Positions 44,601 through 61,228 of a stretch of DNA of 64,000 bases are shown here, in pieces. Under the pieces are notes generated by a model. That model worked only from the letters and a program-made list of their open reading frames with translations, did not search any database and was not told where the DNA came from. The position numbers and the translations under genes were made by a program. Source of the DNA: Eledone cirrhosa (taxonomy: Eukaryota); assembly GCA_964016885.1 (NCBI GenBank), contig OZ024740.1, positions 62,248,001 through 62,312,000 of the forward strand, given 5' to 3'. The stretch's first letter is position 1. Every line of letters begins with the position of its first letter.

Positions 44601-47576
44601 CTCCCTGCGTACGAAAGGCCGGTTGTATGATGCCTGTGTGAGGAGCGCGATGCTGCATGGTAGTGAGACATGGGCAGCAACTGCAGAGGATATGCGACGG
44701 CTGGATAGAAATGAGGCAAGCATGCTCCGTTGGATGTGCAGTGCAAATGTGCGTGAACGACCCAGCATAATGTGTTGAAAGAGAAACTGTGTCTGAGAGG
44801 GATAGAATGTAATGTACGGGAGAGGAGACTGAGGTGGTATGGACATGTGAGGCGCATGGAGGATGACCGATGGGTGAAGAAGTGCCAGGAAATGCCAGTT
44901 GAAGGAAGACGTGGTAGAGGTAGACCACGAAAAACATGGGCGGAGGTGGTGAGAACAGACTTCAGATCATTGAAGCTCACGGTGGAGATGACGAAGGACC
45001 GTGACGAGTGGAGAGATGCTGTGCTGAATAAGACCCGTCCCACCCTTGCAAGCAGAGAAAAGCGGACGTAAAATGATGATGATGATATAGAAGAAGCAGC
45101 AGAAACATTAAAAGCATAGGACAAAATGCTCTATCTCTCTGCACTCTGATTACAAATCCTGCTTTGGTTAACCACTATTGTCCTTTCAGGTTGATACAAT
45201 AATGTACCAGTCTAGGACAGTGGATTGGCAGAATTGTTAGAGTATCAGACAAGATGCAATGTTGTATTTGTTCTGGCTCTTTACATTCTGAGTTCAACCC
45301 CTACAGTGATCTACTTGCATGGTAAACTTAATCTGTCCCTTGGGTACCTTTAAAAAAGCTCACACTGTGATAAGCATTCAGGCTAGGTTTCTGGTTTTAG
45401 GACACTTTCCTCTCTCCAACTTGTCTTCAAGGATCTGAAAAGGCTGATGAACAGTGCCCTTCCCTTTCTAACTGAACAATAAAAAAAAAAAAACGTATGC
45501 AAAACACATATCCTCTGCCTATCTTCATTTGCATTTGAGTTTTTCTCTCTTACGAAAATACTTTCTCCTACAATTCTTACACATTGCTCCAACCTTTGCT
45601 AGTAGAAGTAAACAGATCTAAAGAGGAACAAAATGCATCATCATCGTTTTATGTCTGCTTTGCATGCTGGCAGAGGCTGGACAAGTCATAACAGTCTCAG
45701 ACTAGACTTGCCTGAAAACCAAAACATGCTCATACATTCTATATTTGGTCTGGGTTTTACCAGCTGGATGCTCTTCCTGATGCTAATCTAAAGAAAAAAT
45801 ATTTAATTTAATTAATTATTAATATCAATTTGAAGGATTTAACAGTTTTTGTTATTTGTTTTTAATATAGCCCACAGCAAGAATCGCAGAAGATATTCCA
45901 GGCTCAGAATTCTATGGATGCAGAACAATCAAAGGCCAAGGTAAGAGTTATTGTATTACTGAGTTTTTGTAAGCATTTATATAAGGTTGAAACAAGATAA
46001 CTAATTAAATGATCTGCTCCGGTATGAGACACAGACATGACTGAAGGGTTAAGAAATTTGCTTTCTACAATAGCCTCAATCAACCAATGACCTGTGAGTG
46101 AATTTTGTAGATGGAAACTGTGAGAAAGCCCATTGCATAGCTAATTTCATACACACACACATCCACATGTGCTATTATGTATATAAAAAAAAGAGCCTGC
46201 CAGGTTTAACATTTGTTTAAAAAGAAAAAACAGTTTAGGAGGCTCTTCAGGCTGGTGCTTGTCTTGGTTTCCGTGGTGTCCAACACCCTTACCACTAGGT
46301 TTTCACTAGCATTTGTTTATGTCCCACTTAAACAATATGTCTCTCAGCTTAGCAATTCATTGACAGTCAGCTTTATATACCACATAGAAAAAGTATGAGT
46401 TGGTGTCAAGTAGGACATCAGGCTGTAGAAAAACTGTTACATAAAAACTAGTTCAACCTATGCCAGCATGGAGAAAGCAAACATTAAAATGTTTTGTAAA
46501 ACTGTTCCAGACGGTTTGGTACCAAAAGGGTTAAAGATTTTATTATTTTCAACTTCTTTGTGATTTATGTTAATGTTATATTCTAATGAGTACATAATTC
46601 AATTTATTATATTTTTTTCTGAACATTTCAGATCCTTGGTTTCAACTTGAGTGTTTTAGAAGGCATTGATCCTAATAAAGATAATTTTGTGTCAGCTGGT
46701 ATCTTACAAACCAGGAGTCAGCAAATTGGCTGTTTAGTACGATTAGAACCCAATTTACAAGCTCAGGTATGAAATCTTTATTCTTTTGGCTCCCTATGGA
46801 GCATTGGAGCACTGTTTGTTGTTTATGTAGCAATTTTCATTACCGAAGCAAAGGCAAGGTTGCTATCCTCATGCTGAAATCCTTGATTCAATTCCTAAAC
46901 CAGGTGGCATGTTGTATTTTTGAGCAAGTTGCTTCATTTCACATTGCTTTTCATGATAGGATTGGGGCCCCTATTATTAAAGTACCCCAAAACCCTCCTA
47001 TAAGGTGCAACCTTGTAGGAGGTCAGCTAAACCTGCATAAATTTGAGCTGTAAATTTCATTTTTCATTTCATGTGGTGCCCAAGTTACTATATGAAAAGA
47101 TAACCCTGTTAGATATCATATTTATATTCTATGAGTGTAGCCATTCTCAATTTTACTGCTTTCTTTGCATCAGTTGTATGATTTTATAATGTTTTTTTTT
47201 TTTCATAGTGGAGGTGAGGTATATCAGTAACCTTTCATGTTATTAATCATAAGGTTCATGGACTGACAGAATGATTAGTATCAGACAAAAAATGATTTGG
47301 AAGTATTTATTCTGGCTCTTTACATTCTGAGTTCAACTTCCCTTTCGTCCTTCTGAGTTCGTTAAATAAATACCAGTCAAATACTGGGGATTAATTTAAT
47401 CAACTTACCCTATCCTACAAATTATTAGTCTTGTATCTAAATTAGAAACCATTAATAATTATTATTAAACATTAATTTTTATGAATTTTGTTTTGCAGAT
47501 GTATCGTTTGACTGTCAGAGCAAGTAAAGATACAGTGCCAAAGGCTATTGGGGACCTGTTGGCACTTCAATTCTGA
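3967..47576 (+). CDS. AP2A2: AP-2 complex subunit alpha (alpha-adaptin), 5'-partial multi-exon gene; 18 coding exons in window, 749 aa plus stop
   Basis: Manually spliced exons keep consistent phases and translate to the alpha-adaptin trunk, hinge and ear, from GVVTSAASL... to ...[25 protein letters not shown]. Very similar to vertebrate AP2A1/AP2A2; probably the single invertebrate ortholog. About 200 N-terminal aa lie upstream of the window. Confidence 0.97.
6081..6363. mobile_element. Possible solo-LTR-like CpG-rich insertion
   Basis: TGTAG...CTACA termini, internal gatgactcctgcctatgaaga repeats; no target-site duplication found. Confidence 0.3.
7601..7806. mobile_element. piggyBac-like MITE family A
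   Basis: Degenerate TTAA|CCCTTTAGCATT...AATGCTAAAGGG|TTAA termini; internal sequence shared with other copies, including a partial one at 1-45. Confidence 0.75.
8153..8410 (-). mobile_element. RTE family 1 3'-end fragment or RTE-derived SINE
   Basis: Matches the family 1 3' UTR and (GAT)n tail; related copies at about 4433-4590, 36866-37135 and 62866-63085. Confidence 0.75.
10040..11165 (+). mobile_element. Tandem cluster of tRNA-derived SINEs
   Basis: Repeated TGGCAGAA A-box-like and GAGTTCAAATCC B-box heads, then ctttgcctttcatcct...gataaaataaagtaccag central domain; many other copies across the window (for example 19915-20108 minus, 22140-22560, 47255-47455, 57590-58520). Confidence 0.75.
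12804..12912 (+). CDS. AP2A2: AP2A exon ([36 protein letters not shown])
   Basis: tttcag acceptor, gtaaac donor, 109 nt, phase 0/1. Confidence 0.95.
14865..15087 (+). CDS. AP2A2: AP2A exon ([13 protein letters not shown]...[10 protein letters not shown])
   Basis: taccag acceptor, gtatat donor, 223 nt, phase 1/2. Confidence 0.95.
15957..16053 (+). CDS. AP2A2: AP2A exon ([32 protein letters not shown])
   Basis: ttgtag acceptor, gtattt donor, 97 nt, phase 2/0. Confidence 0.95.
16589..17050. repeat. Degenerate minisatellite of about 32 bp (tttgtgactgtccatttgtgatataggcaaca)
   Basis: Recurring gtgactgt / gtgatataggcaa motifs; continues at about 17225-17350 after a SINE. Confidence 0.65.
17701..17928. 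mobile_element. piggyBac-like MITE family A
   Basis: Same TIRs and internal sequence as the other family A copies. Confidence 0.75.
17939..18373 (-). mobile_element. CR1/L2-like LINE 3' fragment
   Basis: C-terminal motif TRGHAHK...[14 protein letters not shown] in the ORF at 18345-18052, (TTA)n tail; the same tail recurs at about 22612-22750 (+). Confidence 0.8.
18745..19028 (-). mobile_element. Old RTE 3' fragment
   Basis: [11 protein letters not shown]...RGRGRPRKT; (GAT)n-like tail. Confidence 0.8.
19301..19438 (+). CDS. AP2A2: AP2A exon ([20 protein letters not shown]...SIREEM)
   Basis: tcccag acceptor, gtatgt donor, 138 nt. Confidence 0.95.
21277..21384 (+). CDS. AP2A2: AP2A exon ([36 protein letters not shown])
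   Basis: tcctag acceptor, gtaggt donor, 108 nt. Confidence 0.95.
21717..21930. mobile_element. piggyBac-like MITE family A, nested in a family B MITE
   Basis: ttaaccctttagcattt...aatgctaaaaggttaa. Confidence 0.75.
23338..23591. mobile_element. piggyBac-like MITE family B (others at about 17477-17606, 34295-34525, and 38231-41183 interrupted)
   Basis: Ends ggttggtatcaaaagggttaa; shared internal catatttctaatgaaagatac...aaataattttga. Confidence 0.65.
23682..23756 (+). CDS. AP2A2: AP2A exon ([25 protein letters not shown])
   Basis: ttacag acceptor, gtaagt donor, 75 nt. Confidence 0.95.
24723..24820 (+). CDS. AP2A2: AP2A exon ([32 protein letters not shown])
   Basis: ttccag acceptor, gtgaag donor, 98 nt, phase 0/2. 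Confidence 0.95.
24908..25967 (+). mobile_element. RTE-clade LINE family 1, heavily 5'-truncated copy
   Basis: ORF 24997-25575 (DSFRYLG...GRPRKTW...KTRLT), same 3' UTR, (GAT)n tail; somewhat more diverged than the other two copies. Confidence 0.95.
26131..26359. mobile_element. piggyBac-like MITE family A, opposite orientation
   Basis: Shared internal sequence reverse-complemented; ends aatgctaaagggttaa. Confidence 0.75.
26505..26634 (+). CDS. AP2A2: AP2A exon ([16 protein letters not shown]...EIKSSIQE)
   Basis: ttttag acceptor, gtatgt donor, 130 nt, phase 2/0. Confidence 0.95.
28231..28780 (-). mobile_element. CpG-rich insertion, LTR-like
   Basis: GC/CpG-rich island in an AT-rich intron; minus strand starts TGTAGTG and contains CCAAT and TATATAAATAAA; flanked by ATTGTTT direct repeats (28224-28230 and 28781-28787). 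Confidence 0.45.
28814..28915 (+). CDS. AP2A2: AP2A exon ([34 protein letters not shown])
   Basis: AAG-type acceptor (ttaaag), gtaaga donor, 102 nt. Confidence 0.92.
28985..29432 (-). mobile_element. Old degenerate RTE 3' fragment
   Basis: Reverse complement resembles the RTE C-terminus and 3' tail seen in the other copies. Confidence 0.55.
29869..30048 (+). CDS. AP2A2: AP2A exon ([25 protein letters not shown]...SSPPSSQ), end of trunk and start of hinge
   Basis: aatcag acceptor, gtctgc donor, 180 nt. Confidence 0.93.
30198..30402. mobile_element. piggyBac-like MITE family A, opposite orientation
   Basis: ttaaccctttagcatttaaa...ctaaagtgttaa. Confidence 0.75.
31425..31442 (+). CDS. AP2A2: Candidate alternative 18-nt microexon in the AP2A hinge (GKFKKR)
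   Basis: tctcttttattgtttcacag|GGCAAATTTAAAAAAAGG|gtaagt: strong acceptor, perfect donor, 18 nt, phase 0 matching the flanking exons. No transcript evidence. Confidence 0.55.
32637..32804. mobile_element. MITE with TTAA target-site duplication and GG termini (Kolobok-like)
   Basis: TTAA|GGCCAGTTACTACAA..ACCATACCAG ... CTGGTATGGCGCCTTTGTAGTAACTGGCT|TTAA, imperfect TIRs of about 28 bp. Confidence 0.65.
33127..33317 (+). CDS. AP2A2: AP2A hinge exon ([17 protein letters not shown]...GLLVDVFAD...DESFK)
   Basis: tttcag acceptor, gtatgt donor, 191 nt, phase 0/2; DLLGL and GLLVDVF motifs are conserved with vertebrate alpha-adaptins. Confidence 0.9.
33385..34170 (+). mobile_element. R4/Dong-like (restriction-like endonuclease) non-LTR retrotransposon, degenerate 3' fragment
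   Basis: [18 protein letters not shown] (CCHC knuckle) followed by LIDIAV...[13 protein letters not shown]...GVLGTV, typical of the RLE region; stops and frameshifts; adjacent TAA-rich tract. Confidence 0.75.
34859..35031 (+). CDS. AP2A2: AP2A ear exon ([27 protein letters not shown]...DKISN)
   Basis: tcacag acceptor; followed by the U12-type donor ATATCCTTT; 173 nt. Confidence 0.95.
35032..35322 (+). other. U12-type (minor spliceosome) AT-AC intron, 291 nt
   Basis: 5' splice site ATATCCTTT at 35032, branch site TTCCTTAAC at 35305-35313, terminal AC at 35321-35322; splicing gives C|AG (Gln) and keeps the frame. Confidence 0.95.
35323..35446 (+). CDS. AP2A2: AP2A ear exon ([27 protein letters not shown]...HIKF)
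   Basis: AC acceptor of the U12 intron, gtaagt donor, 124 nt, phase 1/2. Confidence 0.93.
37668..37784 (+). CDS. AP2A2: AP2A exon ([19 protein letters not shown]...FARWKALN)
   Basis: tttcag acceptor, gtaagt donor, 117 nt, phase 2/2. Confidence 0.95.
37858..38085. mobile_element. piggyBac-like MITE family A, opposite orientation
   Basis: ttaaccctttagtgtttaaac...atgctaaaaggataa. Confidence 0.75.
38453..41143 (+). mobile_element. RTE-clade LINE family 1, 5'-truncated copy nested in a TTAA-MITE
   Basis: ORFs 38716-40326 and 40323-40760 split by a 2-nt TG duplication (aaaatgTGaaagg versus aaaatgaaagg in the other copies); RT motifs; (GAT)n tail. Confidence 0.95.
41826..45086 (+). mobile_element. 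RTE-clade LINE family 2, near-full-length but degenerate (APE endonuclease plus RT)
   Basis: APE motifs (TLNVGTL, VQEVRW, YAPQ, GDFNGH, QIDF) at 42017-42691; RT and C-terminus broken by stops (42689, 43904) and several frameshifts; ends in cccacccttgcaagcag...(GAT)n. 5' boundary approximate. Confidence 0.93.
45871..45940 (+). CDS. AP2A2: AP2A exon ([23 protein letters not shown])
   Basis: atatag acceptor, gtaaga donor, 70 nt, phase 2/0. Confidence 0.93.
46632..46766 (+). CDS. AP2A2: AP2A exon ([15 protein letters not shown]...[13 protein letters not shown])
   Basis: tttcag acceptor, gtatga donor, 135 nt. Confidence 0.95.
47499..47576 (+). CDS. AP2A2: AP2A last coding exon ([25 protein letters not shown])
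   Basis: ttgcag acceptor, TGA at 47574-47576. Confidence 0.95.
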   Translation: MYRLTVRASKDTVPKAIGDLLALQF

Positions 47577-57400: not shown

Positions 57401-59337
57401 TTTTATGAATATAAAATAGGGCATTGCTAATAACTAGTATTACATAATAGCGCCGATTCAATCAATAATACATTGTTCCATTTAAAAGTTGACTGTATGG
57501 CTATTCCCACTCCCAATTAAATATTATGTATGTTGCTATACTGCAAAATATAATAATTTAACAAGAAAGGTAAAAGTAATTGTTATAATTATTATAGGTG
57601 TGTGGGTTGACAAGATTGTTAGAGGCTCGGACAAAATATATTGCGGTATTTGTTCCATCTCTTTGTTTTGAATTCAAATCCCACCAGCTCCAACTTTGCC
57701 TTTCATCGTTCTAGTACATGTCAAGTTCTAGGTTCGATTTAATCGACTTTCAACTCCAGAACAGTCAGCTTTGGGCTTAAATTAAAAACCATTATTAAAA
57801 TTATGGGGTGATAGACTGGCAGAAACATTAGAGATTTAAACCAAAAATGCTTTTCAGTATTTATTTAGGACTCTTTACATTCTGCATTCAACCCTCTCAA
57901 AGGTCAACTTTGCCTTTCATACTTCTGGAGTCAATAAAATAAAAGTACTAGTCAAGTACTCGGGTCAATTTAATTTGTAGCTTTGTGCCTATGCTAGAAA
58001 GAATTATTGTTGTTGTTATTGTTGTTGCTACTGTTGTTGTTGTTGTTATCTGAAACTGGACAGTGGAAAGGCATGCTTTAGCAGTATTTAGTGATATCTT
58101 CTTCATGTTGTGAGTTTATACCCTTGCTGAGGTTGACTTTGCATTTCGGTATCAGGTATGACATGGAGTGGATTCAGTGAACTTATACCTTTCCCTTTCA
58201 AATTTATGGCTTATGCTAATCTGAGGAATCATTATCAAAAAATATATTAAAAGCTTTACTTGTGCTCTAAAAGGTGGACGAGGTGGCAAAGCCATTAGAG
58301 CATATGATAAAATGCCTTACAGTATTTGTTGGGCTTCTCTGTGCTCTGAGTTAAAAAATCACCAAGGTCAACTTTGCAGGATCCATAAAATAAGTACAAG
58401 TTCAGTGCAATGGATCGACCAAATCATTAGAGCACCAGGCAGAATATCTTGCAATACAATATTAGTTCCATCTCTTTTCATTCTACAGAGTTCAAATCCC
58501 ACTGTGACTTGGTAGGGGTAGACTTAATCTATCAAACACCACCAATTGACCTTTAGTGGAGTTTGCTCTGTTGCAAGGATTTGGACCTGGTCTGTCTCCA
58601 TTTTTATGATACTTTTTTCCTTCATTCCCACCAGTCTCAGAGGCCCTGAAAGGTGTCATTAACACTGCCCTTCCTTCCCTGACTAAACAGTAAAGAAAAA
58701 AAAATGTTAAGTTAACCAGATATCAAAGGTAACTTTAGTCATATGTATAACAATCAATTGTTGATGTTTGTTTATATTTTTTCTTGCCTTGTAAGACATC
58801 TTTAAGCACTAAATAACTATCCATGTATAGTGGCCTTGAGTTCAAACCTTAATTCCAATATAGGCAGCTTTGCTTTTTCTTTCTTTCTTTTTTTTTGTAT
58901 TTTTTGTTGTTGTTCCTTAATTGGTGGGAGTCAATAACATAACAGGAAAATACTAGTGGTAATAGTGGTAGTGGTGGTGGTAATGTATTATTTAACTTGT
59001 CCTCTCTTCTGTACACAATAAATGGGCCAGTTTTGTGTGTGGAGATACATGAAATGATTAATATCCTATAAACCATGGGTTTAACACTTTCACCTGGCCC
59101 TTGAGTGCCTTTGGCGGAGTTCTCTCTGTTGCAAGCATTTGAGTTAGGTCTCTGGTTTGAGGATACCTTCCTAAGTCCCTTGCATCCATCAGTCTTGGAG
59201 CCCCTGAAAAGAGTTACAAACACTGCTTTTCTCCTTGACTAAATAGTAAAAAAGATTTTTTTAAATTTAAGCTCCAGCTCAGTCCTAATCAAGTATATCT
59301 ATGATCAAATAAATTCCAACTTTGACCGTTCCCATCA

Positions 59338-59560
59338 TTTTTACCTCCCAATATACTGTATCAAGAACTACTTTATTTAATGTATCTCTCCTTTTTACCT
59401 CCCAATATACTGTATCAAGAACTACTTTATTTAATGTATCTCTCCTTTTTACCTCCCAATATACTGTATCAAGAACTACTTTATTTAATGTATCTCTCTC
59501 TCCTTTTTACCTCCCAATATACTGTATCGAGAACTACTTTATTTAATGTATCTCTCTTTT
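59338..59560. repeat. Tandem repeat, about 54-bp unit x4 (ttttacctcccaatatactgtatcaagaactactttatttaatgtatctctcct)
   Basis: Near-perfect direct copies. Confidence 0.92.
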
Positions 59561-59799
59561 TTCAAGCTACAATTTAACTGATATTTCTAGCAAATTGAAT
59601 GACGATGCAAACTATCTCTTGTTAGTTTGCCTAACAAGGGATTGACATCCTTAATGTTGTGAGCTCCCCAAAATATTTTAATTAAATAAAAATATTCATT
59701 AGCTTTAATGATAATTCTTAGTAAGGGGAAACAACTCTGAAATCTAAATTGATTTAAAATTGAATGAGGCTATGCATTGTCCAGTAAGCCTGGTGTTTA

Positions 59800-59877
59800 G
59801 TAAGCACGGCAACAACTCCGGACATGTTTCAGTCTTATTAGACTTCATCAGTGAAACATAGACTTACATGTGCTTAC
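59800..59877 (-). ncRNA. Type I hammerhead ribozyme motif (minimal stem III)
   Basis: Minus strand reads GTAAGCAC..TTTCA CTGATGA AGTCT-AATA-AGACT GAAAC AT GTC CGGAG..GTGCTTAC; conserved core intact. Confidence 0.75.
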
Positions 59878-60394
59878 CACACCTTTCTCTCTTTATGTTA
59901 TGACTTCAAAATCAATTCCTGGGATTGTTTTCAATTTTCATATTCCCTGGGTCAATAAAATATTCTCCAATAAGATATTGGAGTTGATTTTAATTAACTG
60001 CATTTCAACCCTTACAATTTAAGGTTTTTAGTTGTTATTTAGTCTCATCCCAATCAATTAAAGGTATAATCGCATACACTGACCATCATATGATTCTAAA
60101 GAATATCTACGACTATATAATCTAACATCTTCTTTATTTTTAAAGATGGCAGGAAGGACAATTTGGCTGTTATTTTTATCATTTTTGTTGGCTTAACAAT
60201 GTTTTTTAGTAATGTAAATTTATGTTCACTCCCTAAACCCGAATGGTGGATTTCTTTATTATTGCTGATTTGCAGAGTCATTAGAGTGTTTGGCTTAATG
60301 CTTTGCAGTATTAACATCACCACCTTGCCCTTGGTTGCCTTTAATAGAGCCCGCTCTGTTGTAAGGATTTGTGCCAGGTCTTCGATTTGAGGAG

Positions 60395-60676: not shown

Positions 60677-60705
<29 letters not shown>

Positions 60706-60708
<3 letters not shown>

Positions 60709-60813
60709 AATGATTTCTACAGGACTAGAACTGTTTCATTTGTATGAAAATCATCAGGACATTCCTGGTGATTCATACGAATGAAACAGTTCTAGTCCTG
60801 CAGAAGTCATTTC
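60706..60813. repeat. Near-perfect palindrome with arms of about 52 bp, flanked by microsatellite
   Basis: agaaatgatttctacaggactagaactgtttcatt...cat...aatgaaacagttctagtcctgcagaagtcatttct. Confidence 0.85.
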
Positions 60814-61228
60814 TATATATATAATAAAGATACCTATACTCTACCAACGTATTGAGTACCTTTTTTTAATGTGGTTACCCACCCACCTGACACAACTCGG
60901 GGAACCTTATATATATATATATATAATCTTATGTTTACCCTGTTGGCTGTCACCATCACTACCACTATCATTAAGATTATTGTCAGGTAGTGTTCACAAG
61001 CTATTTGATGAATTAATAAGCAAGTAATATGTTATCAAATAACAAAAAGCTTGTTAACAGATTGTGTACAGATTTTTCTCTCCTTTATTCTTTTCAATTT
61101 TTTCCTCTTATCTTTTCTTCCTTCTTTTCTCCCTTATATTGAATTATGTTTTCAAAGCTATGAAATGGCTACATATACTTAATATCATTTCAAACTATAT
61201 ATATATATATATATACACATATATATAT

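What the first reader, a model, noticed from the sequence alone, without database searches (positions are those of the whole stretch)
59800..59877. Hammerhead ribozyme motif downstream of AP2A (minus strand)
Seen: the minus strand reads GUAAGCAC-AUGUAAGUCUAUG-UUUCA-CUGAUGA-AGUCU(AAUA)AGACU-GAAAC-AU-GUC-CGGAG-UUGUUGCC-GUGCUUAC. It has both core boxes (CUGAUGA, GAAA), a 5-bp stem II, a GUC cleavage triplet (cut between 59821 and 59820), and a distal 8-bp stem I separated by an internal loop. Stem III is only the palindrome ACAUGU. Known: such palindromic minimal stems III characterise hammerheads of Penelope-like elements and retrozymes, which can cleave as dimers. No RT or GIY-YIG ORF is visible nearby. 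Inference: this is a relic or member of a non-autonomous retrozyme or Penelope-like family. The first stem I pair is an A-C mismatch, possibly from CpG decay, so this copy may be weak.
Basis: partly seen in the sequence, partly recalled or inferred. Interest (0 to 1): 0.75.

Follow-up and report, generated by a model that had tools for sequence, protein, structure and literature searches.

The report
Fossil hammerhead retrozyme copy
The hammerhead ribozyme motif is real, but it lies in one worn, truncated copy of an old 400-base repeat family that likely spread as a self-cutting RNA parasite (a retrozyme, a kind already known in animals), and this copy is predicted not to cut itself any more.

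Summary
The motif is present as described. It lies in a ~250-nt copy (59885-59638, minus strand) of a dispersed repeat whose unit is a ~400-nt, ORF-free, 33% GC circle with one type I hammerhead. Nine of 83 loci run more than once round the unit, and 5 of 75 form head-to-head arms. The exact core plus ACAUGUC occurs 239 times in the genome against 2 for the control, and the stems covary among subfamilies. No young copy turned up in four DNA searches. In sampled copies the core has decayed like the rest of the unit (82% vs 80%). This copy has no partner ribozyme nearby. Its predicted active-fold share is ~1e-6, against 0.09 for a young array. It lies 12 kb past the AP2A stop, on the opposite strand. 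Verdict: fossil of an extinct non-LTR retrozyme family, likely moved by Penelope-like elements; new member of a known kind. The scan has already reported retrozymes, including fossil copies, elsewhere in this genome. Cleavage and transcription are untested.

The parts
59638..59885 (-). Truncated copy of the ~400-nt repeat unit (unit positions -34 to +238 relative to the first core base); weak extension to about 59599
   Evidence: nhmmer profile trained on 62 segments from other loci, E 2.6e-46; 78% identity to the family consensus over 206 columns
59800..59877 (-). Type I hammerhead motif with extended stem I
   Evidence: sequence; Rfam HH9 17.7 bits, below cut-off; family and covariation
59870..59877 (-). 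Distal stem I, 5' arm (pairs with 59807-59800)
   Evidence: pair probabilities 0.75-1.0
59866..59871 (-). Second ACAUGU that can pair with the stem III palindrome and compete with the active fold
   Evidence: sequence; MFE structures
59852..59857 (-). Proximal stem I, 5' strand; A-C mismatch next to the cut site, three G-U pairs
   Evidence: pair probabilities 0.0 in the monomer ensemble
59845..59851 (-). Core box 1 (CUGAUGA)
59831..59844 (-). Stem II, 5 bp with A-U at its base, and 4-nt loop
   Evidence: pair probabilities 0.37-0.72; G at the 5' base in most less-biased copies
59821..59830 (-). Core box 2, one-pair stem III with palindromic CAUG loop, GUC triplet; predicted cut 59821|59820
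   Evidence: 239 genome matches vs 2 control
59815..59820 (-). Proximal stem I, 3' strand
   Evidence: CpG-like column
59800..59807 (-). Distal stem I, 3' arm

Best explanation
This is a single truncated copy of an old, dispersed ~400-nt non-coding repeat with one type I hammerhead per unit, likely an extinct non-LTR retrozyme family, and this copy is predicted to be catalytically dead or nearly so. Likely life cycle of the family (inferred from published retrozymes, not tested here): a longer-than-unit transcript let two ACAUGU palindromes pair into a 6-bp stem III, the double hammerhead cut after GUC, the unit-length RNA was circularised, and a Penelope-like RT/GIY-YIG enzyme copied the circle into new sites. 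That would give circularly permuted, slightly-longer-than-unit, 5'-truncated and head-to-head copies. After insertion the copies decayed neutrally, with CpG loss eroding stems I and II. Shown by calls: family, unit size, permutation, lack of ORF, covariation, decay. Predicted: misfolding of this copy. Inferred: cleavage, circular RNA, Penelope driver.
For: Circular 398-nt consensus with depth of at least 39 all round; 83 of 83 loci map; 9 of 83 span more than one unit. Reference-free internal repeats of period 331-412 beat all 200 shuffles in 4 of 11 loci tested. No frame over 45 aa, GC 33%. Circular fold z -4.5 against 40 shuffles. Head-to-head arm pairs in 5 of 75 loci and no convergent pair; 45 of 96 segment 3' ends fall in two 40-nt bands. 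Covariation score 0.384 vs 0.239 shuffled (0/500) and at most 0.137 for slid partners, on 32 of 48 core-matched loci. Neutral decay: core 192/234 (82%) vs rest 4425/5533 (80%); intact cores 3 of 25 vs 8.6% expected. No young copy in four DNA searches (long matches at most about 82%). The genome holds an RT + GIY-YIG Penelope-like family with many intact 777-aa frames and a young 311-nt hammerhead array with the same one-pair stem III layout.
Against: 7 of 11 self-repeat tests were not significant, one of them the window copy itself. No long tandem array of this family was found; three loci hold two hammerhead homologues, all damaged. No sequence link between the unit and any Penelope terminal repeat was found, so the driver is inferred. 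The 3'-end clustering is biased by the queries that selected the loci. Covariation counts are inflated by relatedness within subfamilies. In this copy the hammerhead is closer to the consensus than the body (72/80 vs 91/116, Fisher p 0.035; 0 of 22 other copies as skewed). Folding models ignore tertiary contacts and proteins.
Confidence: 0.82

Rival explanations
1. The repeat is the terminal repeat (pLTR) of an extinct autonomous Penelope-like element, and the copies are its 5'-truncated 3' ends and partial tandems.
For: Head-to-head inversions and clustered 3' ends are Penelope features (PMC8557442 passages). One locus of a sister subfamily (L032) lies beside a Penelope RT remnant. Most Penelope hammerheads occur as dispersed single motifs (PMC4209133).
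Against: The sequence upstream of the hammerhead is the same as the sequence downstream of it at a ~400-nt period, which leaves no room for an ORF. Penelope protein matches lie within the fetched flanks (about 1.5-2 kb each side) of only 2 of 83, 0 of 30 and 1 of 20 loci. At L032 another repeat sits between the hammerhead and the RT, which is on the opposite strand. The minimal-hammerhead traits are absent.
Confidence: 0.11
2. This copy was kept by the host as a solo cis-acting ribozyme or hairpin, for example to cut antisense or read-through transcripts running towards the AP2A 3' end.
For: Hammerhead 90% vs body 78% identical to the consensus. Stem II and the distal stem stay fully paired, each with a double change against the consensus. 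It was the only match of the exact 35-position pattern in the genome, but that pattern was derived from this copy.
Against: The copy was picked for looking intact out of a large family, and about 1 in 10 sampled copies keeps the core by chance. The pair next to the cut site is an A-C mismatch, and the active-like fold has ~1e-6 of the ensemble. There is no partner copy in the window or the 20 kb beyond its end. No minus-strand host gene was seen in the frames scanned.
Confidence: 0.04
3. The repeat is a SINE-like or DNA-transposon family that only resembles a hammerhead.
For: Rfam score far below cut-off; no consensus fold from RNAalifold on 28 decayed copies.
Against: 239 vs 2 exact core matches; compensatory changes in both stems across subfamilies; circular permutation.
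Confidence: 0.03

Closest known systems
Metazoan non-LTR retrozymes (Cervera and de la Pena 2020, PMC7229834: Mytilus 350-390 bp, axolotl Rtz331 with HHR_Amex1; read: passages, first third of Results, Discussion)
   Same: Type I hammerhead, unit within 150-450 bp, GC under 50%, no ORF, self-paired circle. The one-pair helix III capped by a palindromic tetraloop is as described for HHR_Amex1, which needs a dimer.
   Different: Old and dispersed (median 73% identity to the consensus), at most about 1-2 units per locus, no array found. This copy is shorter than one unit. RNA and cleavage untested. No sequence comparison with the published units was made.
Solo/monomer retrozyme derivatives, Penelope origin (Li, Clavereau and Pollet, bioRxiv 10.64898/2026.07.22.740005; read: abstract, introduction, part of methods, section 14, passages)
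   Same: Dispersed intergenic monomers in a genome that also holds Penelope-like elements.
   Different: Fails their 'active' rule (two consecutive units with complete hammerheads). No homology to a Penelope terminal repeat was found here.
[quoted passage not shown]
   Same: Palindromic stem III region, predicted dimer action, many heterogeneous single copies.
   Different: No extra base between positions 9 and 10.1, helix II of 5 bp rather than 7-8, extended stem I, no flanked RT + GIY-YIG ORF.
Young 311-nt hammerhead array of the same genome (L158)
   Same: Same layout: one-pair stem III with a palindromic tetraloop, and A-U at the base of stem II.
   Different: No blastn similarity to this unit at E 0.01; 99% identical tandem arms; GUA triplet; predicted active-like share 0.086.

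Membership tests
Type I hammerhead ribozyme | Conserved core CUGANGA / GAAA / NUH around three helices, open end at helix I | tested here: met
   covariation in helices I and II across subfamilies
Type I hammerhead ribozyme | Helix I paired next to the cut site in this copy | tested here: not met
   A-C mismatch; helix I pair probabilities 0.0; active-like share ~1e-6
Type I hammerhead ribozyme | Site-specific self-cleavage | not testable with these tools
   needs an in vitro assay
Rfam hammerhead families | Score at or above the gathering threshold | tested here: not met
   0 matches; HH9 17.7 vs 52 bits
Metazoan non-LTR retrozyme | Unit of 150-450 bp with a type I hammerhead | tested here: met
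   398-406-nt circular consensus
Metazoan non-LTR retrozyme | No coding capacity, GC under 50% | tested here: met
   longest frame 45 aa, GC 33%
Metazoan non-LTR retrozyme | Head-to-tail tandem units (family level) | tested here: inconclusive
   9 of 83 loci longer than one unit; 4 of 11 self-repeat tests significant; three loci with two damaged hammerheads; no long array found
Metazoan non-LTR retrozyme | Two consecutive complete hammerheads at this locus ('active' rule of Li et al.) | tested here: not met
   single sub-unit copy; no other copy in the window or the 20 kb beyond its end
Metazoan non-LTR retrozyme | Stable self-paired circular fold | tested here: met
   consensus -87.2 vs -64.7 +/- 5.1 kcal/mol, 40 shuffles
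Metazoan non-LTR retrozyme | Expression as linear and circular RNA | not testable with these tools
   no run on record as RNA to lay
Metazoan non-LTR retrozyme | Target-site duplication | tested here: inconclusive
   best shared word of 7 bases between the flanks, chance level
Autonomous Penelope-like element | pLTRs flanking an RT + GIY-YIG ORF | tested here: not met
   no Penelope protein match in the window or the next 20 kb; 2 of 83, 0 of 30 and 1 of 20 loci with a match in their flanks
Penelope minimal hammerhead | Extra base before helix II, long helix II, G10.1-C11.1 | tested here: not met
   no extra base, 5-bp helix II, A-U at its base in this copy; G-C likely ancestral
Penelope-driven insertion | Inverted 5'-truncated arms and fixed 3' ends | tested here: inconclusive
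   5 head-to-head and 0 convergent pairs in 75 loci; 45 of 96 3' ends in two bands, but locus choice is biased

The most novel reading that the evidence does not exclude
This one fossil copy was domesticated: selection kept its hammerhead (90% vs 78% identity in the body) as a solo ribozyme that cuts antisense or read-through RNA heading towards the AP2A 3' end, helped by a protein or a trans partner that overcomes the predicted misfold.
Probability: 0.04. Interest if true: 0.6.

Novelty: new member of a known kind. Interest (0 to 1): 0.2.

Why it matters
Little, for this locus. It shows that the genome has carried successive waves of hammerhead retrozymes: an extinct ~400-nt family at 73% median identity beside a 99%-identical 311-nt array with the same ribozyme layout. 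The fossil copies keep the permuted and head-to-head shapes expected if a Penelope enzyme copied a circular RNA. Two full-text searches found no paper on cephalopod retrozymes in the held library, so the family may be undescribed, but the kind is known. It also shows that an intact-looking core in such a genome is expected by chance among decayed copies.

Tried and rejected
Rfam at gathering score: nothing. RNAalifold on 28 copies: no structure, because the copies are too decayed. Search for CpG-intact young members: 4 matches, all decayed. L032's neighbouring Penelope RT as the family's own ORF: rejected (opposite strand, another repeat in between, sister subfamily). Link to the young 777-aa Penelope family or the 311-nt array by DNA similarity: none. 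Public runs: no RNA holder listed; this says nothing on expression. The second core match at 60757-60718 as a dimer partner: rejected, since it is a different family with a non-complementary stem III. A minus-strand C2H2 frame 8-9 kb past the window end as host gene: its translation reads like the C-terminal part of a LINE protein (recalled motifs). Only 14 of 92 frames beyond the window were scanned, and all 35 of 35 between 47.6 and 64 kb. Flank-only profile test for a full-length copy here: no hit for either flank, so the loose alignment out to 59982 and 59558 was not accepted. Look-ups of earlier findings by this sequence or nearby place: nothing relevant. L012's neighbouring frame as a Helitron protein: no supporting Pfam match. 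Supplements of the papers were not read and may list mollusc hammerheads.

Full report
Observation. Alone the motif is weak. Rfam has no match at gathering score and HH9 at 17.7 bits, E 0.27. A loose core pattern hits two sites in the window against 0.26 matches expected. The stretch folds well (z -3.26), but into a different hairpin. Contigs of 4 of 4 public runs (one study, at most two samples) cover the locus with no listed variant in the motif, so it is not an assembly artefact.

Context. The genome is 3.0 Gb in 1796 contigs. It is AT-rich and full of microsatellites and LINE pieces. A cephalopod host is my inference and is also stated in earlier scan notes; no call of mine names it. AP2A is on the + strand and stops at 47574-47576. 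The motif is 12.2 kb further on and antisense. None of the 35 frames of 62 aa or more between 47.6 and 64 kb has a Pfam match. Of 14 of 92 frames scanned in the next 20 kb, the clear matches were LINE-type.

Family. A 301-base query found 40 further matches at 69-95% identity (40 of 89 candidates scored). Sequence found downstream of the hammerhead in some copies lies upstream of it in others, offset by 370-399 bases. Iterating on 83 distinct loci gave a closed 398-nt unit with depth of at least 39 everywhere; all 83 mapped, and 9 span more than one unit. Without any reference, 4 of 11 loci show an internal repeat (periods 331-412) above all 200 shuffles; 7 do not, among them the window copy. 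The unit has no frame over 45 aa and 33% GC, and folds as a circle at z -4.5. Five of 75 loci have head-to-head arms and none has convergent arms. Of 96 segment 3' ends, 45 fall in two 40-nt bands, though my queries bias which loci were seen. The window copy runs 59885 to 59638, perhaps to 59599; either end falls within one of those bands.

Is the fold meaningful? The exact core plus ACAUGUC occurs 239 times against 2 for the reversed pattern. Of 48 such loci examined, the 32 with a 14-nt spacer were aligned. All 11 pairs of helices I and II show double changes, and the covariation score is 0.384 against 0.239 shuffled and at most 0.137 when partners are slid. Relatedness inflates these counts, and they reflect differences between subfamily masters. 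Column counts point to G-C pairs at the base of helices I and II in the ancestor, eroded by CpG loss.

Age and decay. Four DNA searches and two tight patterns found no young copy; median identity to the consensus is 73%. In 25 segments from the less hammerhead-biased set, the core is 82% identical and the rest 80%, and 3 of 25 cores are intact against 8.6% expected. That is neutral decay. One result points the other way: in the window copy the hammerhead is 72/80 and the body 91/116 identical to the consensus (p 0.035), more skewed than any of 22 other copies.

Would this copy cut? Proximal helix I has pair probability 0.0. It is outcompeted by pairing of upstream bases with the 3' strand of stem II and of a second ACAUGU with stem III. 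The active-like fold holds about 3e-7 to 1e-6 of the ensemble, against 0.086 for the hammerhead of a young 311-nt array. Changing the A to G in silico gives only 8e-5, against 0.11 for the consensus with G. Stem III is one pair plus a palindromic loop. Published motifs of this build cut poorly as monomers and well as dimers (PMC7229834 passages; PMC6155905 passages). No second copy lies in the window or the 20 kb beyond its end. These are secondary-structure predictions only.

Driver. The genome holds a young Penelope-like family with RT and GIY-YIG domains (150 of 5887 candidates scored, many with 777-aa frames) and a second RT-like ORF between direct hammerhead repeats (L064). Neither shares DNA with this unit beyond the core of one sister-subfamily hammerhead. 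Penelope protein matches flank only 2 of 83, 0 of 30 and 1 of 20 loci. Mobilisation of retrozymes by Penelope-like elements is proposed in PMC7229834 (Discussion) and supported in bioRxiv 10.64898/2026.07.22.740005 (section 14). Inverted truncated arms are Penelope features (PMC8557442 passages). Here the driver is inferred from insertion shape alone.

Comparison and verdict. The family works like a metazoan non-LTR retrozyme and meets the sequence-level features that could be tested. Tandem structure is only partly shown, and RNA circles and cleavage could not be tested. This locus fails the two-hammerhead rule for an active element. Searches for hammerhead + Penelope-like + octopus and for hammerhead ribozyme + cephalopod returned no paper describing such a family; supplements were not read. 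Earlier notes of this scan describe many retrozyme families and fossil copies in the same genome, one of them an old 394-base family that may be this one; I could not locate it to check. New member of a known kind; interest 0.2.

Noticed in passing
window 60681-60880: A ~110-bp palindrome (60706-60814, 86% arm identity) made of two back-to-back arms of a second hammerhead-like motif. It matches the direct repeats that flank an RT-like ORF in L064 and 9 of 173 fetched loci, and read depth here is thousands of times single-copy.
   Followed up: partly
window 59338-59562: Four tandem copies of a 54-bp unit, 94% matched, just beyond the fossil copy's 3' end.
   Followed up: no
L056 1800-5326, L062 2630-6157: The young Penelope-like family has a 427-aa frame upstream of the 777-aa RT/GIY-YIG frame; in L062 the two read as one 1176-aa frame. 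No hammerhead core was found near its 3' end by my regex.
   Followed up: partly
L127-L177: At least three sister subfamilies share the ACAUGUC stem III with different stem I and II sequences; one appears to carry two U-U mismatches in helix I.
   Followed up: partly
L012/L013 and L149/L150: Two pairs of family copies are duplicated with their flanks (99.5% over 2.6 kb; 99.8% over 3 kb), so they were re-copied as DNA. The frame beside L012 looks Helitron-like from recalled motifs, without Pfam support.
   Followed up: partly
window 58540-58700, 59091-59253, 60321-60393 (minus): Three related ~70-150-bp repeat fragments, 70-80% alike, flank the finding.
   Followed up: no
L057 minus strand near 1775: Another hammerhead-like motif with a long stem II and an alternating TA palindrome as stem III.
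   Followed up: no
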